Notes under the pieces: generated by a model
Seen by the model: only the letters and a program-made list of their open reading frames with translations
Told to the model about the DNA's origin: nothing
Database searches by the model: none
Shown here: positions 6,327 to 19,427 of the stretch, one piece after another
Numbering within the stretch: position 1 is the stretch's first letter
Layout of the letters: every line of letters begins with the position of its first letter
From: a virus
Lineage: Duplodnaviria; Heunggongvirae; Uroviricota; Caudoviricetes
Strand: one strand, 5' to 3'
DNA length: 20,169 nt
Virus record (IMG/VR): IMGVR_UViG_2695420632_000003
Location: 1-20,169 of that record
Program-made: the position numbers and the translations under genes

Positions 6327-6537
6327 AAACGGTTTGCGGGAAAAGGAGAGTTAAGTAGAATTGCAGCGGGTGCTTGAGGCTATCTGTCTCAGGCATGAAC
6401 ACCAAAAGGCAGATAGAGAAAAGCCCCAGTTAACATTACGCGTCCGGCAAGACGCTTAACATTAATCTGAGGCCATATCTATGCTCTACACACGTAGGTT
6501 AGCCTCTTACGTGCCGAAAGGCAAGGAGAAGCAGGCT

Positions 6538-6693
6538 ATGAAGCAGCAAAAGGCGATGCTAATCGCCCTGATCGTCATCTGTTTAACCGTCATTGTGACG
6601 GCACTGGTAACGAGGAAAGACCTCTGCGAGGTACGAATCCGAACCGGCCAGACGGAGGTCGCTGTCTTCACAGCTTACGAACCTGAGGAGTAA
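6538..6693 (+). CDS. hok: Hok/Gef family type I toxin (HokD/RelF-like, 51 aa)
   Basis: Translation MKQQKAMLIALIVICLTVIVTALVTRKDLCEVRIRTGQTEVAVFTAYEPEE is a Hok-family membrane toxin as I recall it; SD AAGGAGA upstream; an in-frame upstream extension (6481) occupies the mok-like position; intrinsic terminator follows. Confidence 0.85.
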   Translation: MKQQKAMLIALIVICLTVIVTALVTRKDLCEVRIRTGQTEVAVFTAYEPEE

Positions 6694-11781: not shown

Positions 11782-12172
11782 ATACATATCTGGATTATCA
11801 CCGGTTACGGTAAAAAGTGATTGCTTACTGTTTTTGTGAATGGCATTGCAGCAGCCGGATAATGTCAGTGCTGGCTGACGGTGTGCTGGTGGCGGGTGTG
11901 GTGGTTGCTGCTTTCCCGTTGCTGAAAAAGAAAACGCCAGACTGTTAGCCGGGTATCAGTTAGCGGGAGAAATTTTTAAATACTTCACAATTCAGGCGGT
12001 TGACTGTTGTCTGGTTTGCGGGGAGTTTGTTAAAAGAAACTGGCATGGTGAATCCCCCTGTGCGGAGGGGCAATCAGCGAGTAGGTATATGGGATAATCG
12101 CGGATTCAGGTGCTGGTACTGAATTCACCGGGAGGCACCCGGCACCATGCAATGGCACATAGCGCCACTCTC

Positions 12173-12200
12173 CAGCCCCTCTCCGGAGGGGCTGTTTATA
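12173..12200 (+). terminator. Strong intrinsic terminator (+ strand) inside the cargo segment
   Basis: 9-bp GC-rich stem CAGCCCCTC / GAGGGGCTG with UCCG tetraloop, followed by TTTATATTGATTTT. Confidence 0.6.
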
Positions 12201-12228
12201 TTGATTTTGTCAGATGTGAGTAAACTCC

Positions 12229-14678: not shown

Positions 14679-14761
14679 AAAGTGAGCCAGTCAAATGGAA
14701 GGTATCGTTAAACTCACCGGTAGTGTCAGTGGGTCGTCTGAGATGCCTGCATGAGTTATCA

Positions 14762-14793
14762 GAGCCATCAGTACTTAACTGGTGGCTTTTTTT
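14762..14793 (+). terminator. Intrinsic terminator between nanS-p and the holin gene
   Basis: 9-bp stem AGCCATCAG / CTGGTGGCT (one G-U pair), loop TACTTAA, followed by TTTTTTT. Confidence 0.5.
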
Positions 14794-14828
14794 ATTGTTG
14801 TCAGCTTCCGGATAACGGGAGACGGGGT

Positions 14829-15044
14829 ATGTACCAGATGGAAAAAATCACAACAGGTGTGTCATACACCACGTCAGCGGTGGGAACGGGCTACTGGTTC
14901 CTGCAGTTGCTGGACAGGGTTTCCCCGTCTCAGTGGGCGGCAATAGGCGTGCTGGGGAGTCTGCTGTTTGGGCTGCTGACATATCTGACTAACCTGTATT
15001 TCAAAATCAGAGAGGACCGGCGTAAGGCGGCGCGGGGAGAGTAA
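14829..15044 (+). CDS. S: Class II holin, S21-like pinholin (71 aa) with dual-start motif
   Basis: Translation [71 protein letters not shown]: two TM segments, Met1/Met4 dual start, charged C-terminus; partnered with a SAR endolysin downstream. The ORF track extension to 14751 runs through the terminator and is rejected. Confidence 0.8.
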
Positions 15045-15048
15045 AGCG

Positions 15049-15855
15049 ATGAAGAAAAAATACGAACTGGTTGTTAAAGGGATAAATAATTACCCGGATA
15101 AGATTACTGTTACTGTGGTACTGGAAATTGGTGGGTATCCGTCACTGTTGTTGCCAAATGTGGCGATTAGTCTTGACCGTACTGAAGGTGCCACGCTGGA
15201 GTTTTACGAAGCTGAGGCGAAAAAGCAGGCGAAGCAGTTTTTCATGGATGTTGCTGCCGGGTTATGTGAAGGGAACGAACCGTTGCCGGAAAAGCGCCCC
15301 ATAATTTTAGAGGCGCAGGATGTGTTGATAACCTACAAAGGAAAGCTACCGGGAAGAATTACTGGTTCTCTGAAGATGCCGCCGTCAACACTGCGGTCAG
15401 AAAAAGAGGCGTCTTGTCTGCAGTCTGAGTACTCCATTACGGTTAAAAGTGCCGGAGAGGAAGGAAATAAACGTTATTTTATTGCGTCTGCACCTGATAA
15501 AGATCAGGAATGGGAGTGTAACCGGCCATCCTTTGTTGTATACGGAGATGGCGGGAAAATAACCATCTCAGAAAATGGGAAATTAACACCGCCATCGCAC
15601 CAGCATAGTGAGGCGCTCATTGAATTTGCCATTGATTACCTGAAGAACAATAAAAAGCAGGGGCTGATGAAGCGCATTGGTCGTTGCATGGGATATCTGC
15701 AGGTAGCAGCTGAGATTGAAATGATGGCCAGTGGTGCTGACAATGATGCAGTTGTGCTGGAGGCTCTTCTGCGTGATTTTGATAATACGCCCTTTAAGAA
15801 AGCACCTGTTGACTGGATGCAGCCGGGGATGACTTATCTGAAAGGGCGTATATAA
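15049..15855 (+). CDS. Uncharacterized 268-aa soluble protein inserted between holin and endolysin
   Basis: GGGGAGAG SD, starts 4 nt after the holin stop (late-operon co-transcription); no TM segments or recognisable catalytic motifs. Confidence 0.5.
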   Translation: MKKKYELVVKGINNYPDKITVTVVLEIGGYPSLLLPNVAISLDRTEGATLEFYEAEAKKQAKQFFMDVAAGLCEGNEPLPEKRPIILEAQDVLITYKGKLPGRITGSLKMPPSTLRSEKEASCLQSEYSITVKSAGEEGNKRYFIASAPDKDQEWECNRPSFVVYGDGGKITISENGKLTPPSHQHSEALIEFAIDYLKNNKKQGLMKRIGRCMGYLQVAAEIEMMASGADNDAVVLEALLRDFDNTPFKKAPVDWMQPGMTYLKGRI

Positions 15856-15864
15856 GGTGGCTCG

Positions 15865-16179
15865 TTATCTGTTGCTGGATAATCGACTGAAGATGCGTTC
15901 TTTTTGTGTTTTTGCGTAATGATTGTCCCACTCACAATCAAGGTAGCTTAATTCTTCATTCAACCAGTTATTTATATTGGTCTTAATACGCATAAGCATG
16001 GGCTGTGTTAATGCTCTGGCGATAATGCCGAGAGTCACAGGTGTGAGATGTCCATACGGCTCAGCCTGAATGGATTTTACTGCATCGTGTTCTTGTGGGA
16101 GGAGTAAGAGGCACTCTGATTTTACCCGCTCATTTATGGCTTGCAGGCATAAATCATAATTATGTTGATCGTTATGCAT
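15865..16179 (-). CDS. Uncharacterized 104-aa protein, convergent with the 268-aa ORF
   Basis: GAGGA SD 6 nt upstream of ATG 16179 on the minus strand; its stop lies 10 nt from the stop of 15049-15855. Confidence 0.45.
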   Translation of the reverse strand: MHNDQHNYDLCLQAINERVKSECLLLLPQEHDAVKSIQAEPYGHLTPVTLGIIARALTQPMLMRIKTNINNWLNEELSYLDCEWDNHYAKTQKERIFSRLSSNR

Positions 16180-16307
16180 GGTTAATCCTCTACTGAAATT
16201 GTCAGATATATTTCAGCCATCAGGAAAAACGCCAGTGTCCTACCGCTGGCGGGCTGAAGATTTAACATATCCAGGGATTCGGAACCGATAAATCCTGATA
16301 AATATCC

Positions 16308-16745
16308 ATGAACACCAAAATCAAATATGGCCTGTCGGCTGCCGTTCTGGCGTTGATTGCCATCGGTGCGCCTGCGCCTGATATTCTCGACCAGTTTCTG
16401 GATGAAAAAGAAGGTAACCACACAACGGCATACCGTGATGGTGCGGGTATCTGGACCATCTGCCGCGGTGCCACAATGGTGGATGGTAAACCTGTTATTC
16501 CGGGCATGAAACTGTCGAAGGAAAAATGCGACCAGGTTAATGCCATTGAACGGGATAAGGCGCTGGCATGGGTGGAGCGCAATATTAAAGTTCCACTGAC
16601 CGAACCACAGAAAGCGGGTATAGCGTCATTCTGTCCCTATAACATTGGCCCCGGTAAGTGTTTCCCGTCGACGTTTTATAAGCGGCTGAATGCTGGTGAC
16701 CGCAGGGGAGCGTGTGAGGCGATTCGCTGGTGGATTAAGGACGGT
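16308..16745 (+). pseudogene. R: SAR endolysin R (R21-like lysozyme), N-terminal fragment interrupted by an IS21-family element
   Basis: N-terminal weakly hydrophobic Gly/Ala-rich SAR domain (GLSAAVLALIAIGAPA) and E-x8-D-x5-T catalytic triad (EGNHTTAYRDGAGIWT); reading frame broken after ...WWIKDG by the IS left end. Confidence 0.8.
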
Positions 16746-16938
16746 TGCGTATTTTCATGAAAGGAGATCACTCAATAACTTCCATCGAGATCGGGTAATA
16801 ACATTTGAACAGATCGCTGAATAACATCGATGGAGATCACTTTTGACTCATTTTGTTATTCAGTGATCTCCATCAATGTTATTGGAACTTCACAGGTGTG
16901 TTGATCTGTATCTTTTGCCATTCCGGTAAAGGATACCT

Positions 16939-18480
16939 ATGCCAACAGTTCCAATTTCTATGAGAAAACTTAAAGAAATTCTTAGGCTTAAATACGGTGT
17001 TGGACTCAGCCATCGACAAATTGGTCGTAGTCTTGCAATCTCCCCTTCCGTTGTATCCAGATATGCTAATCGGGCGGCTCAACTTGGCATAAAGCAGTGG
17101 CCCTTACCTACAGGATGGGATGATACAAAACTAAAACATGCGTTCCTTCAGACCCAGGTTAAGATGAAGAAGCACTCTCTGCCTGACTGGGCTACAGTAC
17201 ACCGGGAACTGCGTAATAAATGCGTGACGCTGCAGCTACTCTGGGAAGAATACTGTGAGCGTAATCCAGGCGGTTTTTACAGCTATAACCATTACTGCCG
17301 GATGTACCGTGAATGGCTCAAAACCACTTCACCATCAATGCGTCAGGTACATAAAGCTGGCGAAAAACTTTTCGTTGATTACTGTGGACCTACCGTTGGC
17401 GTTACCGACCCTGAGACCGGAGAAATAAGAACTGCTCAGGTCATCGTAGCTGTTCTCGGGGCATCAAGTTACACATGGGCAGAGGCCACCTGGTCTCAGC
17501 AGCTTGAAGACTGGGTGATGAGTCATGTTCGCTGCTTCCAGTGGTTGGGTGGCGTTCCTGAACTTGTTGTTCCGGACAATCTGAAAAGCGCCACATCCAG
17601 GGCATGTAAGTATGATCCTGACGTTAACCCTACCTACCAGCAGATGCTTGAGCATTATAATGTCGCAGTTTTGCCTGCGCGGCCACGTAAACCGAAAGAT
17701 AAAGCCAAAGCTGAAGTTGGCGTTCAGGTTGTTGAACGCTGGATCATGGCCCGAATCAGGCATGAGATCTTCTACAGCCTTGCATCGCTTAATCAGCGCA
17801 TTCGGGAGTTGCTGGAAAGACTGAATAACAAAATAATGCAGAAGTTGGGTTATTCACGTGCAGAACTCTTCATCCAGCTTGATAAACCCGCACTGAAGCC
17901 TCTTCCTGAAGCCAGTTACAGTTACACCCTGGTGAAGAAAGTCAGAGTTCATGCCGATTACCACGTGGAAATCGACAAACATTACTACTCGGTTCCATGT
18001 TCGCTGTTAGGCCAGCAACTGGAAGCATGGATCTCCGGAGAACTGGTAAGACTCTTCAATCAGGGGCAGGAGGTTGCTGTGCACCCGCGCAAGCGTACTT
18101 ATGGCTACAGTACCCGCAACGAGCACATGCCTGAAGCTCATCGACAGCATGCCACCTGGACGCCAGAGCGTCTTCTGGAATGGGCGGGGCACATAGGCAG
18201 TGAAACTCATAGTTATGTGCTTCATATACTGAACTCTCGTCCACATCCGGAACAAAGCTATCGCTTCTGCCTTGGACTCCTGAACCTTCATAAAAAATAC
18301 AGTAAAGCCAGACTTAATGCAGCATGTGCAAGAGCTCTGAAAACAAAGGTATGGCGTCTGTCAGGTATTAAATCGATCCTGGAAAAAGGTCTGGATAAAC
18401 AACCTGTTCAGGATCCAAAACCAGATCTGTTATCCACGATGGAACACGAAAACGTACGCGGCAGTGAGTATTACCACTGA
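16939..18480 (+). CDS. istA: IS21-family transposase IstA
   Basis: 513 aa with N-terminal HTH (LSHRQIGRSLAISPSVVSRY); followed 11 nt later by the IstB ATPase gene; AAAGGA SD. Confidence 0.85.
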   Translation: MPTVPISMRKLKEILRLKYGVGLSHRQIGRSLAISPSVVSRYANRAAQLGIKQWPLPTGWDDTKLKHAFLQTQVKMKKHSLPDWATVHRELRNKCVTLQLLWEEYCERNPGGFYSYNHYCRMYREWLKTTSPSMRQVHKAGEKLFVDYCGPTVGVTDPETGEIRTAQVIVAVLGASSYTWAEATWSQQLEDWVMSHVRCFQWLGGVPELVVPDNLKSATSRACKYDPDVNPTYQQMLEHYNVAVLPARPRKPKDKAKAEVGVQVVERWIMARIRHEIFYSLASLNQRIRELLERLNNKIMQKLGYSRAELFIQLDKPALKPLPEASYSYTLVKKVRVHADYHVEIDKHYYSVPCSLLGQQLEAWISGELVRLFNQGQEVAVHPRKRTYGYSTRNEHMPEAHRQHATWTPERLLEWAGHIGSETHSYVLHILNSRPHPEQSYRFCLGLLNLHKKYSKARLNAACARALKTKVWRLSGIKSILEKGLDKQPVQDPKPDLLSTMEHENVRGSEYYH

Positions 18481-18491
18481 TACGGGATCCA

Positions 18492-19241
18492 ATGATGAAT
18501 CATCTTTACGAACAACTGACCGCACTTAAACTCACCGGCTTCCGTGATGCGCTTAAAAAGCAACTTGCTCAGCCGGGCACATACCAGGAGCTGGGCTTCG
18601 AAGAACGCCTGTCATTACTGACAGCAGAAGAACTAACCTGCCGTGAAAACAGGAAGGCAGAGCGTCTGATCAAACATGCACGGTTCAGACTTAATGCTGA
18701 GTTATCAAAGCTGGATTATCGTAACAATAGAGGGCTGGACAGGGCCCTCATCCGTTCACTCAGTCAGGGAAACTGGTTAACCCTGAAACAAAATATTTTA
18801 CTGACCGGGGCCACCGGCAGCGGTAAAACGTTCCTGGCATGTGCACTTGGTCATAATGCCTGCCGACAGGGATACAAGGTCTACTATTATCGCCTTAAAG
18901 CGCTGATGGAACAGTGCTATCAGGGGCATGCTGATGGAAGATACAGCAAACTTTTGACCAGGCTGAATAATAGCGATCTGCTGCTTCTGGATGACTGGGG
19001 GCTGGAACCTCTCTCATCAGAACAGCGTAGCGACCTGCTGGAAATAGTGGATCTGATGTACCAACGAGGCTCAATCATCGTAGTGAGCCAGTTGCCGGTG
19101 GAAAACTGGTACAAAATGATCGGAGACTCCACACATGCGGATGCCATCCTAGATCGACTGGTTCATGGCAGTATCAAGATCGAACTTAAAGGAGAATCAA
19201 TGCGGAAAATACAATCTCCGTTGACCGAAGGAGATCAGTGA
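18492..19241 (+). CDS. istB: IS21-family helper ATPase IstB
   Basis: Walker A GATGSGKTFLA and Walker B LLLLDDWG; ~250 aa, typical IstB. Confidence 0.85.
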   Translation: MMNHLYEQLTALKLTGFRDALKKQLAQPGTYQELGFEERLSLLTAEELTCRENRKAERLIKHARFRLNAELSKLDYRNNRGLDRALIRSLSQGNWLTLKQNILLTGATGSGKTFLACALGHNACRQGYKVYYYRLKALMEQCYQGHADGRYSKLLTRLNNSDLLLLDDWGLEPLSSEQRSDLLEIVDLMYQRGSIIVVSQLPVENWYKMIGDSTHADAILDRLVHGSIKIELKGESMRKIQSPLTEGDQ

Positions 19242-19326
19242 AGGTAATTTAAAAACGGTTCTGTGAAAGTGACACGAACCGATCTCCATCGATGTTACTC
19301 ACCGATCTCCTTCACGGTAATACGCA

Positions 19327-19427
19327 ACGGTGGCAGGGACTGCCGTATTCGCTCAAATAACTGTTACGGTCAGGTATCCCGTCGTGACCAGGAGAGCGCG
19401 CTGGCGTGCTGGGGAATCGACAGATAA
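19327..19427 (+). pseudogene. R: SAR endolysin R, C-terminal fragment downstream of the IS
   Basis: Removing the IS plus one TSD copy restores ...IKDG-GRDCRIRSNNCYGQVSRRDQESALACWGIDR-stop in frame. Confidence 0.75.

What the first reader, a model, noticed from the sequence alone, without database searches (positions are those of the whole stretch)
15045..16307. Two-gene insert splitting the pinholin and SAR-endolysin genes
In phage 21-type lysis cassettes S and R are adjacent. Here about 1.25 kb separates them, holding a 268-aa soluble protein co-transcribed with the holin (start 4 nt after the S stop) and a convergent 104-aa gene on the opposite strand whose promoter region is shared divergently with R. 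Neither protein shows motifs I recognise. Placement inside the lysis cassette ties expression to late infection; candidate roles include lysis regulation, superinfection exclusion, or an anti-phage/anti-defence pair.
Basis: partly seen in the sequence, partly recalled or inferred. Interest (0 to 1): 0.7.

Follow-up and report, generated by a model that had tools for sequence, protein, structure and literature searches.

The report
Accessory gene slot in lysis cassette
The two genes between the holin and lysozyme genes of this E. coli prophage are real, but the first is a long form of YdfR, a protein of unknown role found at this spot in many lambda-like prophages (E. coli K-12 included), and the second is one of at least five interchangeable small orphan genes found there on the opposite strand.

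Summary
A 71-aa phage-21-type holin (14829..15044), a 268-aa ORF starting 4 nt after its stop (15049..15855), a convergent 104-aa ORF (15865..16179, minus strand) and a SAR-type lysozyme (from 16308) are all present.

The "foreign insert" reading is only partly right. Residues 1-100 of the 268-aa protein match Pfam DUF1327/YdfR (E 1.7e-43). Holin-YdfR-lysozyme is the usual order in K-12 Qin (essQ-ydfR-rrrQ), BP-4795 and about 100 deposited phages. Against such cassettes the window differs by one 857-bp block (15385..16241). That block adds a C-terminal module ("CM") to YdfR and carries the reverse gene.

The same arrangement is deposited in Stx2 phage 86 (gp05/gp06, 97.9% identical DNA) and in an O104:H4 prophage. 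In 5426 complete E. coli genomes, CM occurs in 787 and the 104-aa gene in 95.

Both genes are under purifying selection (dN/dS 0.16-0.5). Neither CM nor the 104-aa protein has a Pfam, PADLOC, PDB or viral-structure relative.

The only functional lead is published: K-12 YdfR binds the catalytic half of RNase E. At least five unrelated orphan families occupy the reverse-strand position.

Verdict: an ordinary, already-deposited variant of a known arrangement, function unknown. Interest is modest.

The parts
12014..12203 (+). Context: short late leader RNA (Rfam STnc100) ending in a strong terminator hairpin at 12173..12194. It marks the start of the late transcript that must run through nanS-p, S, the 268-aa gene and R.
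   Evidence: Rfam match of 132 bits against a gathering score of 47. Terminator-like site at 12173..12194. Its identity as the pR'/tR' leader is inferred from its position and from knowledge of lambdoid phages.
14829..15044 (+). Class II (phage-21-type) holin S, 71 aa, with a Met1/Met4 double start.
   Evidence: PF04971, E 2.3e-32. RefSeq annotates the identical 216-bp gene as a class II holin.
15049..15855 (+). 268-aa long YdfR-family gene. It has three parts: the DUF1327 N domain (aa 1-76, 15049..15276), a linker predicted to be disordered (aa 77-151), and a conserved C-terminal module 'CM' (aa 152-268, 15502..15855).
   Evidence: Pfam DUF1327 at E 1.7e-43 and phrog_1085 at E 2.5e-159. Module map from homologues. 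AlphaFold secondary structure and confidence by region. dN/dS 0.16-0.57.
15385..16241 (.). The 857-bp block present here but absent, at one precise junction, from short-YdfR cassettes such as BP-4795. It holds codons 113-268 of the forward gene, the reverse gene and 62 nt upstream of the reverse gene.
   Evidence: BLASTN breakpoints: window 14759..15384 matches L011 1501..2125, and window 16242..16748 matches L011 2122..2625.
15785..15851 (-). Long inverted repeat inside the 3' end of the CM coding region, beginning 14 nt after the stop of the reverse gene. Its role is unresolved.
   Evidence: Minus-strand RNA folds to -28.8 kcal/mol, z -4.6, with 0 of 200 shuffles folding as well. Covariation is not above shuffles.
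15865..16179 (-). 104-aa orphan gene (phrog_1853), a soluble protein predicted to have five helices, convergent with the forward gene.
   Evidence: dN/dS 0.24-0.44 over 7 alleles. AlphaFold pLDDT 87.8, pTM 0.81. Only 21 cluster representatives among 1.84 billion proteins. AGAGGA lies 7 nt before the ATG.
16180..16307 (-). Intergenic leader between the divergent starts of the reverse gene and R. The stretch 16231..16307 is shared with cassettes that carry other reverse genes. A hairpin at 16230..16250 (followed by U5 on the minus strand here) sits at the mosaic junction. 16242..16307 is shared with the BP-4795 cassette, where it runs from the last codons of short ydfR across the spacer to R.
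   Evidence: Alignments of leaders from eight cassettes and breakpoints. Hairpin -12.4 kcal/mol, z -1.2. No consensus promoter found.
16308..16745 (+). SAR-type lysozyme R, first 146 codons only, interrupted by an insertion sequence.
   Evidence: PF00959, E 6.4e-23. All public matches stop at 16745-16748. Collinearity with L001 breaks there.
16746..19326 (+). IS21-family insertion sequence of 2581 bp (istA 16939..18480, istB 18492..19241) with a 5-bp target duplication.
   Evidence: IstB_IS21 at 227 bits; rve and Mu-transposase C-terminal domains. Junctions from comparison with L001.
19327..19427 (+). Displaced 3' end of R, consisting of the duplicated 5 bp plus the last 31 codons and the stop.
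   Evidence: Window 19327..19556 matches L001 8041..8270.

Best explanation
The interval is the normal accessory slot of this lineage of lambdoid lysis cassettes, not a foreign insert that split an S-R pair.

Shown:
- The slot always begins with a YdfR-family gene starting a few nucleotides after the holin stop.
- Here it holds a long recombinant allele: the DUF1327 N domain, a disordered linker and a conserved C-terminal module (CM). In other prophages CM is a separate 213-217-aa protein with a coiled-coil N terminus.
- Next comes one of at least five unrelated small orphan genes that occupy the same reverse-strand position just upstream of R.
- Against short-YdfR cassettes, the CM part and the reverse gene together form a single 857-bp block.

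Inferred:
- The forward gene is made late, from the Q-dependent late transcript that starts near 12014, and is translationally coupled to S.
- It is a soluble cytoplasmic accessory protein rather than a lysis component. Its DUF1327 domain docks on the catalytic half of host RNase E and/or on RNA, as reported for K-12 YdfR. This would adjust RNA turnover late in infection, with CM adding a second, unknown partner.
- The 104-aa gene is an independent cargo gene of the moron type, transcribed against the late transcript, most likely in the lysogen. It is not a cognate partner of CM.

My confidence in the identity and the evolutionary picture is about 0.9. My confidence in the RNase E/RNA mechanism is about 0.3.
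For: Identity:
- DUF1327 match at E 1.7e-43.
- 43.6% identity to K-12 YdfR over residues 1-78, E 1e-20.
- The same gene order, with the same 4-nt spacing after the holin stop in K-12 Qin and BP-4795; the other cassettes have the same order with 3-4 nt.

Prevalence:
- In phage records: the YdfR N domain in 100, CM in 5, the 104-aa gene in 4.
- In 5426 complete E. coli genomes: 3159, 787 and 95 respectively.

Mosaic structure:
- A single 857-bp indel against BP-4795.
- Architectures seen in the slot: 296-aa and 329-aa genes alone, 213 aa + 104 aa, 213 + 75 + 95 aa, 211 + 86 aa, 328 + 104 aa, and 70 + 105 aa.
- Five reverse-gene families fall in five different PHROGs with no pairwise BLAST similarity. 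Three of them share the same roughly 80-nt leader and diverge right after its hairpin.

Real genes: dN/dS 0.16-0.57.

Soluble proteins: no membrane-spanning stretch.

Late expression: STnc100 leader and terminator at 12014..12203, with no other consensus promoter upstream of S.

Mechanism lead (PMC13232886): K-12 YdfR binds RNase E 1-597 in a bacterial two-hybrid assay and co-purifies RNase E 1-598. Residues 1-72 suffice for the interaction, and RNA co-purifies with it. In the AlphaFold model the N domain is three strands plus a long helix.

Not a cognate pair: divergence of the 104-aa gene and of the adjacent CM is uncorrelated (r = -0.16 over 15 allele pairs), and CM occurs about eight times more often than the 104-aa gene.
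Against: - RNase E binding was shown only for the 103-aa K-12 protein, which is 44% identical to this N domain. The same paper found that overproducing it had little effect on the transcriptome and none on growth.
- The strict position between S and R, with translational coupling, would also fit a role in lysis.
- In all 10 contexts examined the 104-aa gene lies next to a CM-type gene or CM remnant, including a relative only about 45% identical. That leaves room for a functional link.
- No promoter for the reverse gene was found, so its expression in the lysogen is an assumption.
- The AlphaFold model of the 268-aa protein is poor overall (pLDDT 53.5).
- The double-stranded-RNA-binding-domain-like Foldseek hits are not significant (E 0.5).
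Confidence: 0.45

Rival explanations
1. The YdfR-family protein is a lysis regulator. It would act from the cytoplasm on the N-terminal tail of the pinholin or antiholin, or of the SAR lysozyme, to tune when or whether lysis fires, loosely as the Mu releasin gp25 acts on the Mu SAR endolysin.
For: - Its position between S and R is invariant, its start lies 4 nt after the S stop, and in K-12 its stop overlaps the R start.
- R begins MNTKIKYG, so it has lysines in a short cytoplasmic tail. In Mu, lysines 6 and 7 of that tail confer dependence on gp25 (PMC9239132).
Against: - There is no membrane segment or tether, whereas gp25 is membrane-tethered.
- Phage 21 itself lacks the gene, to my knowledge. 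Only 100 of the 368 phage records that share this S/R DNA encode a YdfR N domain, so it is dispensable for lysis.
- Its length and module content vary freely, from 70 to 333 aa.
- Overproducing K-12 YdfR caused no growth defect.
Confidence: 0.15
2. CM and the 104-aa protein form a functional pair. One would be a late-made effector, and the other a lysogen-made inhibitor or sensor. Together they would act as an exclusion, abortive-infection or anti-defence module riding in the lysis cassette.
For: - The 104-aa gene was next to a CM-type gene in 10 of 10 contexts, always convergent and at most 11 nt apart; in L026 the two reading frames overlap by 8 nt. This includes a relative about 45% identical that sits beside a 70-aa CM remnant.
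- A distant Salmonella CM relative is also followed by a reverse small gene, a DUF1883 protein.
- CM ends in a strongly conserved tail, P-x-F-K-K...W-x-x-P-G...Y-L-K-x-R-I, that is predicted to be disordered, as partner-binding peptides often are.
Against: - CM occurs without the 104-aa gene in most genomes (787 against 95) and in the 296-aa and 329-aa forms.
- The two genes do not co-diverge (r = -0.16).
- Neither protein matches PADLOC.
- Other cassettes place unrelated reverse genes at the same spot, next to YdfR forms without CM.
Confidence: 0.15
3. The interval is decaying mosaic debris. The 268-aa ORF would be a broken YdfR gene, as RefSeq annotates it, and its C-terminal part would be non-functional.
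For: - PGAP marks only 336 bp as 'YdfR family protein, incomplete, missing C-terminus' and leaves 15385..15855 unannotated.
- The host prophage is already damaged by an insertion sequence in R.
Against: - The ORF is intact and in frame.
- The 90%-identity cluster of this allele has 584 member sequences.
- The CM core has dN/dS of 0.16-0.39 at dS up to 1.1 and has 27 invariant positions, Salmonella relatives included.
- In GenBank and RefSeq, phage 86 has the full 268-aa gene annotated.
Confidence: 0.03
4. The 104-aa ORF is a chance antisense reading frame. What matters would be only the DNA or RNA, for example antisense transcription that damps leaky lysis-gene expression.
For: - No promoter was found.
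- There is a strong inverted repeat just past its stop and a hairpin in its leader.
- The family is very small.
Against: - dN/dS is 0.24-0.44 with the length kept at 103-105 aa down to 28-43% identity.
- The fold prediction is confident.
- A good Shine-Dalgarno sequence precedes the ATG.
Confidence: 0.02

Closest known systems
YdfR of the E. coli K-12 Qin prophage (b1555, 103 aa, Pfam DUF1327), and the short YdfR genes of BP-4795 (ORF47) and H-19B
   Same: - The same Pfam family.
- The same place between a class II holin and the lysozyme.
- In K-12 Qin and BP-4795, the same 4-nt gap after the holin stop.
- The N domain is 44% identical to K-12 YdfR and 94% identical to the BP-4795 protein.
   Different: - The window protein is 268 aa. 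It continues through a disordered linker into a 117-aa module (CM) that the short forms lack.
- K-12 YdfR stops shortly after the SEK...YS motif at which the window protein carries on.
Stx2-converting phage 86 gp05 and gp06 (NC_008464 / AB255436), and the matching non-Stx prophage of E. coli O104:H4
   Same: The same two genes in the same arrangement. DNA identity across S..R is 97.9% to phage 86 and 99.7% to O104:H4. The 104-aa protein is 100% identical.
   Different: - In those records R is intact; here it is cut by an IS21-family element.
- Phage 86 carries stx2 upstream. The window and the O104:H4 prophage do not.
Morons of lambdoid phages, such as lambda bor, which lies on the opposite strand beside the lysis genes and is expressed from the prophage (from my knowledge of the literature)
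   Same: - A small gene on the opposite strand within the late region.
- Present or absent at a precise junction between otherwise collinear phages.
- Somewhat lower G+C, 0.41-0.45 against about 0.50 in the flanks.
   Different: - No promoter or terminator of its own could be identified.
- There is no signal peptide or lipobox, so it is a cytoplasmic protein, whereas Bor is a lipoprotein.
- It lies inside the S-R interval rather than after Rz.
Phage-encoded proteins that target RNase E: T7 gp0.7, T4 Srd and phiKZ Dip (from my knowledge of the literature)
   Same: They would be functional analogues if the DUF1327 domain binds the catalytic half of RNase E, as K-12 YdfR does.
   Different: - No sequence or fold similarity was found. 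PDB searches by sequence, profile and fold returned none of them.
- No effect on RNase E has yet been shown for any YdfR.
Mu gp25 'releasin', a regulator of a SAR endolysin (PMC9239132)
   Same: It is encoded in a lysis cluster with a SAR endolysin and acts from the cytoplasmic side.
   Different: gp25 is membrane-tethered and required for lysis. The window proteins have no membrane segment, and the slot content is dispensable and variable.

Membership tests
YdfR / DUF1327 (Pfam PF07041) | Match to the family model above Pfam's gathering score | tested here: met
   147.2 bits against a cut-off of 25, E 1.7e-43, residues 1-100.
YdfR / DUF1327 (Pfam PF07041) | Encoded between a class II holin and the lysozyme, starting a few nucleotides after the holin stop | tested here: met
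   A 4-nt gap here, the same as K-12 essQ-ydfR and BP-4795.
YdfR / DUF1327 (Pfam PF07041) | Small single-domain protein of about 100-115 aa | tested here: not met
   268 aa, with a further conserved module at residues 152-268 that has no Pfam match.
YdfR / DUF1327 (Pfam PF07041) | Binds the N-terminal catalytic half of RNase E and co-purifies RNA (reported for K-12 YdfR only) | not testable with these tools
   PMC13232886. The window's N domain is 43.6% identical to K-12 YdfR over the interacting region.
Phage-21-type pinholin / SAR-endolysin cassette | Class II holin of the S21 family with a double start | tested here: met
   PF04971, E 2.3e-32. The sequence begins MYQMEK.
Phage-21-type pinholin / SAR-endolysin cassette | Lysozyme with an N-terminal signal-anchor-release stretch and the Glu-Asp-Thr triad | tested here: met
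   PF00959, E 6.4e-23. The sequence shows the Gly/Ala-rich stretch at residues 8-24 and E35, D44 and T50. That these are the R21 triad positions is from my knowledge.
Phage-21-type pinholin / SAR-endolysin cassette | S and R directly adjacent, and R intact | tested here: not met
   They are 1263 nt apart. R is cut after codon 146 by an IS21-family element.
Moron (independent accessory transcription unit in a lambdoid phage) | Present or absent at a precise junction between otherwise collinear phages | tested here: met
   The 857-bp block 15385..16241 against BP-4795.
Moron (independent accessory transcription unit in a lambdoid phage) | Own promoter and terminator | tested here: inconclusive
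   No consensus sigma-70 site in 16180..16307. There is a stable inverted repeat after the stop, but it has no U run and no covariation support.
Known anti-phage defence systems (PADLOC-DB 2.0) | Match of either protein to a defence-system model | tested here: not met
   No family at E up to 1 for either protein.
Cognate two-gene pair (toxin-antitoxin-like) | Obligate co-occurrence and co-divergence of the two genes | tested here: not met
   CM is in 787 genomes and the 104-aa gene in 95. Pairwise dN of the two genes is uncorrelated, r = -0.16. The one-way association, 104-aa gene always beside CM, is met in 10 of 10 contexts.

The most novel reading that the evidence does not exclude
The holin-lysozyme interval of 21/Stx-type lambdoid prophages may be an undescribed cargo hotspot. 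Behind a shared roughly 80-nt leader next to R, at least five unrelated orphan genes of 86-104 aa are swapped in on the reverse strand. These genes, together with the CM module that always accompanies the 104-aa family, could encode new lysogen-expressed exclusion or counter-defence factors. One possible arrangement is the 104-aa protein as a partner of the conserved C-terminal tail of CM.
Probability: 0.15. Interest if true: 0.6.

Novelty: new variant of a known kind. Interest (0 to 1): 0.3.

Why it matters
- It removes a false lead. The S-R "split" is the norm for a large group of E. coli prophages, including Shiga-toxin phages and K-12 Qin, so it is not evidence of a special insertion.
- It shows that YdfR is a modular family. 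Its long forms are mis-annotated in RefSeq as pseudogenes, which hides a conserved 117-aa module present in about 14% of complete E. coli genomes.
- It points to a compact, highly variable position where small orphan genes with no sequence or fold relatives are exchanged. This is a cheap place to look for new prophage accessory functions.
- Together with the 2026 report that K-12 YdfR binds RNase E, it gives a testable idea: many lambdoid phages may deliver an RNase E/RNA-binding factor along with their lysis genes.

Tried and rejected
Searches that found nothing:
- Sequence searches of both proteins against PDB chains, as single sequences and as profiles, gave nothing significant. The best hits were coiled-coil noise and one E 0.03 hit to KEOPS Pcc1.
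- NCBIfam and PADLOC gave no match.
- Pfam scans of all members of the CM and 104-aa alignments gave only coiled-coil noise.
- Fold searches:
  - It had no hit at E 0.001 or better in the viral structure library.
  - The 268-aa model had no Foldseek PDB hit at E 0.001 or better. Its weak hits to double-stranded-RNA-binding domains (probability 0.89, E 0.5) are recorded only as a hint.
- Literature: no paper in the library describes this slot, and DUF1327 appears in one unrelated genome paper.

- The AlphaFold-database library was not available.
One viral-contig scan found nothing.

Readings tested and not supported:
- A terminator or structured-RNA reading of the inverted repeat at 15785..15851. 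It is stable, but covariation is not above shuffles.
- A consensus promoter for the reverse gene. None was found. By eye, TTTATC-17-TATGTT in the shared leader and GACAAT near the gene are weak candidates only.
- Co-evolution of CM and the 104-aa gene, rejected at r = -0.16.
- The pseudogene reading, rejected by dN/dS.
Full report
**1. What is in the sequence**

The ORF list and the raw sequence confirm every coordinate in the finding.

- The holin is the 71-aa product of 14829..15044. It matches PF04971 'P21 holin S' at E 2.3e-32, and its Met1/Met4 double start is visible in MYQMEK.
- Four nucleotides after its TAA, and preceded by GGAGAG, the 268-aa ORF starts (15049..15855).
- Nine nucleotides after that ORF's stop lies the stop of a 104-aa ORF on the minus strand (15865..16179), which has AGAGGA 7 nt before its ATG.
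- After a 128-nt gap, the lysozyme gene starts at 16308 (PF00959, E 6.4e-23). It has a Gly/Ala-rich N-terminal stretch and E35, D44 and T50, the residues I know as the catalytic triad of the phage 21 SAR endolysin.
- Upstream lie a 622-aa sialate-esterase-like gene (DUF1737 + SASA + DUF6645), three tRNAs, and a match to the Rfam sRNA STnc100 at 12014..12203 that ends in a strong terminator. From its position I read this as the short leader of the Q-dependent late transcript.
- There is no stx gene. The window resembles a non-Stx prophage of E. coli O104:H4 that has Stx-phage architecture.

**2. Both genes are real**

- Across six or more alleles taken from related loci, the 104-aa gene keeps its length (103-105 aa). 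Its dN/dS is 0.24-0.44 at dS up to 0.6.
- The C-terminal 117 codons of the forward gene have dN/dS 0.16-0.39 at dS up to about 1.1. The N domain has 0.35-0.57.
- AlphaFold gives a confident five-helix model for the 104-aa protein (pLDDT 87.8, pTM 0.81).
- For the 268-aa protein the model has two moderately confident domains joined by a disordered linker at residues 70-154 (mean pLDDT 53.5). The N domain is three strands plus a long helix (residues 1-76). The C domain is three strands plus three helices (residues 160-245).
- Neither protein has a membrane-spanning stretch. Both are mildly acidic.

**3. The forward gene is a YdfR-family gene in its usual place**

- Residues 1-100 match Pfam DUF1327 at 147 bits against a cut-off of 25.
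- In E. coli K-12 the Qin prophage reads essQ (holin), then ydfR, then rrrQ (lysozyme), then rzpQ. It has the same 4-nt gap after the holin stop.
- BP-4795 has S, then a 114-aa YdfR, then R.
- By tblastn, the N domain is encoded in 100 deposited phage records, mostly Stx1a and Stx2c phages plus H-19B and mEp460.
- ydfR-like DNA is found in 3159 of 5426 complete E. coli genomes.

The premise that S and R are adjacent in this cassette type therefore holds for phage 21 itself (from my knowledge) but not for this large lineage.

**4. What is extra**

- BLASTN against the BP-4795 cassette gives two collinear segments: window 14759..15384 and 16242..16748. They abut at a single point in BP-4795.
- The difference is one 857-bp block, 15385..16241. 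It carries codons 113-268 of the forward gene, the reverse gene, and 62 nt upstream of the reverse gene.
- The remaining 66 nt before R (16242..16307) are shared with the BP-4795 cassette, where they run from the end of short ydfR to the start of R.
- Homologue mapping shows a modular family with three parts.
  - An N module at residues 1-120.
  - A variable middle, often a coiled coil.
  - A conserved C module, "CM", at residues 152-268. Its invariant motifs are G-R-C-M-G-Y-L-Q and a P-x-F-K-K...W-x-x-P-G...Y-L-K-x-R tail.
- CM also exists as a separate 213-217-aa protein with a coiled-coil N terminus (P0056, seen on 203 contigs).
- The window allele looks like a recombinant. It is joined at a shared SEK(E/D) motif between a YdfR-linker gene and a stand-alone CM gene.
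- RefSeq's pipeline annotates this ORF as a 336-bp 'incomplete' YdfR pseudogene and leaves CM unannotated. The selection data contradict that. The phage 86 record annotates the full 268-aa gene.

**5. The slot is a mosaic hotspot**

Between the same holin and lysozyme genes I found the following contents:

| Content between S and R | Source |
|---|---|
| YdfR of 72-114 aa alone | K-12 Qin, BP-4795 |
| 296-aa or 329-aa YdfR-coil-CM gene alone | L018, Stx2_95 |
| 213-aa CM gene plus the 104-aa reverse gene | Stx2_12E129, L021 |
| 328-aa gene plus the 104-aa reverse gene | L024 |
| 213-aa CM gene, 75-aa DUF1327 gene, 95-aa reverse gene | L003 |
| 211-aa YdfR-coil gene plus an 86-aa reverse gene | PhiR5_1, E. 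coli B derivative |
| 72-aa DUF1327 gene plus a 98-aa reverse gene | L030 |
| 114-aa YdfR gene plus a 90-aa reverse gene | L032, L033 |
| 70-aa CM remnant plus a 105-aa relative of the reverse gene | L026 |

- The five reverse-strand proteins fall in five different PHROGs, all of unknown function. They show no pairwise BLAST similarity.
- Three of them (104, 95 and 86 aa) share the same roughly 80-nt leader next to R, including the hairpin GCCAGTGGTGGGCACTGGC. They diverge right after it.
- The window's combination is therefore one draw from a common, freely recombining set.
- It is already deposited. Stx2 phage 86 gp05/gp06 is 97.9% identical and O104:H4 is 99.7% identical. Fifty-three of 5426 genomes hold at least 80% of the S..R stretch.
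- CM is in 787 genomes and the 104-aa gene in 95.

**6. Function: what can and cannot be said**

- Neither CM nor the 104-aa family has any match in Pfam, NCBIfam, PADLOC, PDB sequences (single or profile), PDB folds or the viral structure library.
- An exhaustive HMMER search of 1.84 billion cluster representatives found only 21 for the 104-aa family. A handful are full-length proteins of 105-120 aa at 28-43% identity.
- The one experimental lead is a 2026 paper (PMC13232886).
  - K-12 YdfR was recovered in a two-hybrid screen using the RNase E paralogue RNase G as bait.
  - It binds RNase E 1-597 and co-purifies RNase E 1-598, and residues 1-72 suffice.
  - RNA co-purifies with it.
  - Overproducing it changes few transcripts and does not slow growth.
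- The window's N domain is 43.6% identical to K-12 YdfR over exactly that region.
- The N domain's three-strands-plus-helix shape gave weak, non-significant Foldseek hits to double-stranded-RNA-binding domains.

On this basis I commit, at about 0.3, to the following mechanism. The forward protein is a late-made cytoplasmic factor whose DUF1327 domain docks on RNase E and/or RNA, with CM adding an unknown second contact. Late co-expression with S is inferred from the 4-nt coupling and from the absence of another promoter between the late leader and S.

The 104-aa gene must be read through, antisense, by the late transcript for R to be made. I regard it as an independent cargo gene of the moron type. 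Its promoter was not found, so the timing of its expression is unknown.

**7. Rivals**

- *Lysis regulator (0.15).* This fits the position and the coupling, and has a loose precedent in Mu gp25, which acts on the lysine-bearing cytoplasmic tail of a SAR endolysin. But these proteins have no membrane tether, and the slot content is dispensable and highly variable.
- *CM plus 104-aa functional pair (0.15).* The 104-aa gene lies beside CM in 10 of 10 contexts, even at about 45% identity. Against this, CM usually occurs alone and the two genes do not co-diverge (r = -0.16).
- *Pseudogene debris (0.03) and a spurious antisense ORF (0.02).* Both are contradicted by the selection and structure data.

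**8. Novelty and score**

The arrangement is known and deposited. The family of the first gene is known by name only. The C-terminal module and the reverse gene are undescribed orphans. I rate it a new variant of a known kind, with interest 0.3.

The most novel reading not excluded is that the S-R interval is an unrecognised hotspot where small orphan cargo genes are exchanged behind a common leader. I give that a probability of about 0.15.

**9. Condition of this copy**

R is interrupted after codon 146 by a 2581-bp IS21-family element with a 5-bp target duplication. No complete E. coli genome in the collection shares that junction. This prophage is probably lysis-defective, and experiments should use an intact relative.

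Noticed in passing
window 16746..19326 (R resumes at 19327..19427): The SAR lysozyme gene is split after codon 146 by a 2581-bp IS21-family element (istA 513 aa, istB 249 aa) with a 5-bp target duplication. None of 5426 complete E. coli genomes shares this junction, so the prophage is probably lysis-defective in this strain only.
   Followed up: yes
between the ydfR-type gene and R in L003, L012, L029-L033 and the window (16180..16307 for the shared leader): At least five unrelated orphan families (phrog_1853, 10490, 2572, 25324 and 2411; 86-104 aa) occupy the same reverse-strand position in different E. coli prophages. Three of them share a leader of about 80 nt and diverge right after its hairpin at window 16230..16250. 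The 95-aa type has a weak partial hit to the PADLOC candidate PDC-S51 (E 2.5e-5).
   Followed up: partly
window 15385..15855; RefSeq records NZ_CM129860 and NC_018658: RefSeq's pipeline calls the intact 268-aa ORF a 336-bp 'incomplete' YdfR pseudogene and leaves the conserved C-terminal module unannotated. Many of the 787 genomes with this module show no feature under it.
   Followed up: yes
window 15785..15851, minus strand: There is a stable inverted repeat inside the last 24 codons of the forward gene, just past the stop of the reverse gene (-28.8 kcal/mol, z -4.6). It is present in alleles with and without the reverse gene. It has no U run and no covariation signal.
   Followed up: partly
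window 12014..12203 (+): Rfam STnc100 sRNA with a strong terminator at 12173..12194. It is probably the short pR'-tR' late leader of this prophage. No stx genes follow it.
   Followed up: no
window 6368..6543 (+): Rfam match to the sok antitoxin RNA (117 bits against a gathering score of 59), which suggests a hok/sok-type toxin-antitoxin locus in the early or replication region of the prophage.
   Followed up: no
L016 5001..5941 (Salmonella enterica subsp. diarizonae prophage): A distant relative of the C-terminal module (165 aa, 39% identical) lies upstream of a different holin type. It is followed by a reverse-strand DUF1883 gene, echoing the forward-gene-plus-reverse-gene layout.
   Followed up: partly
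P0192, P0193, P0205: Three very long predicted proteins (2532-6458 aa) gave several partial matches each to the 104-aa profile. They are probably repeats or assembly artefacts. I did not examine them.
   Followed up: no
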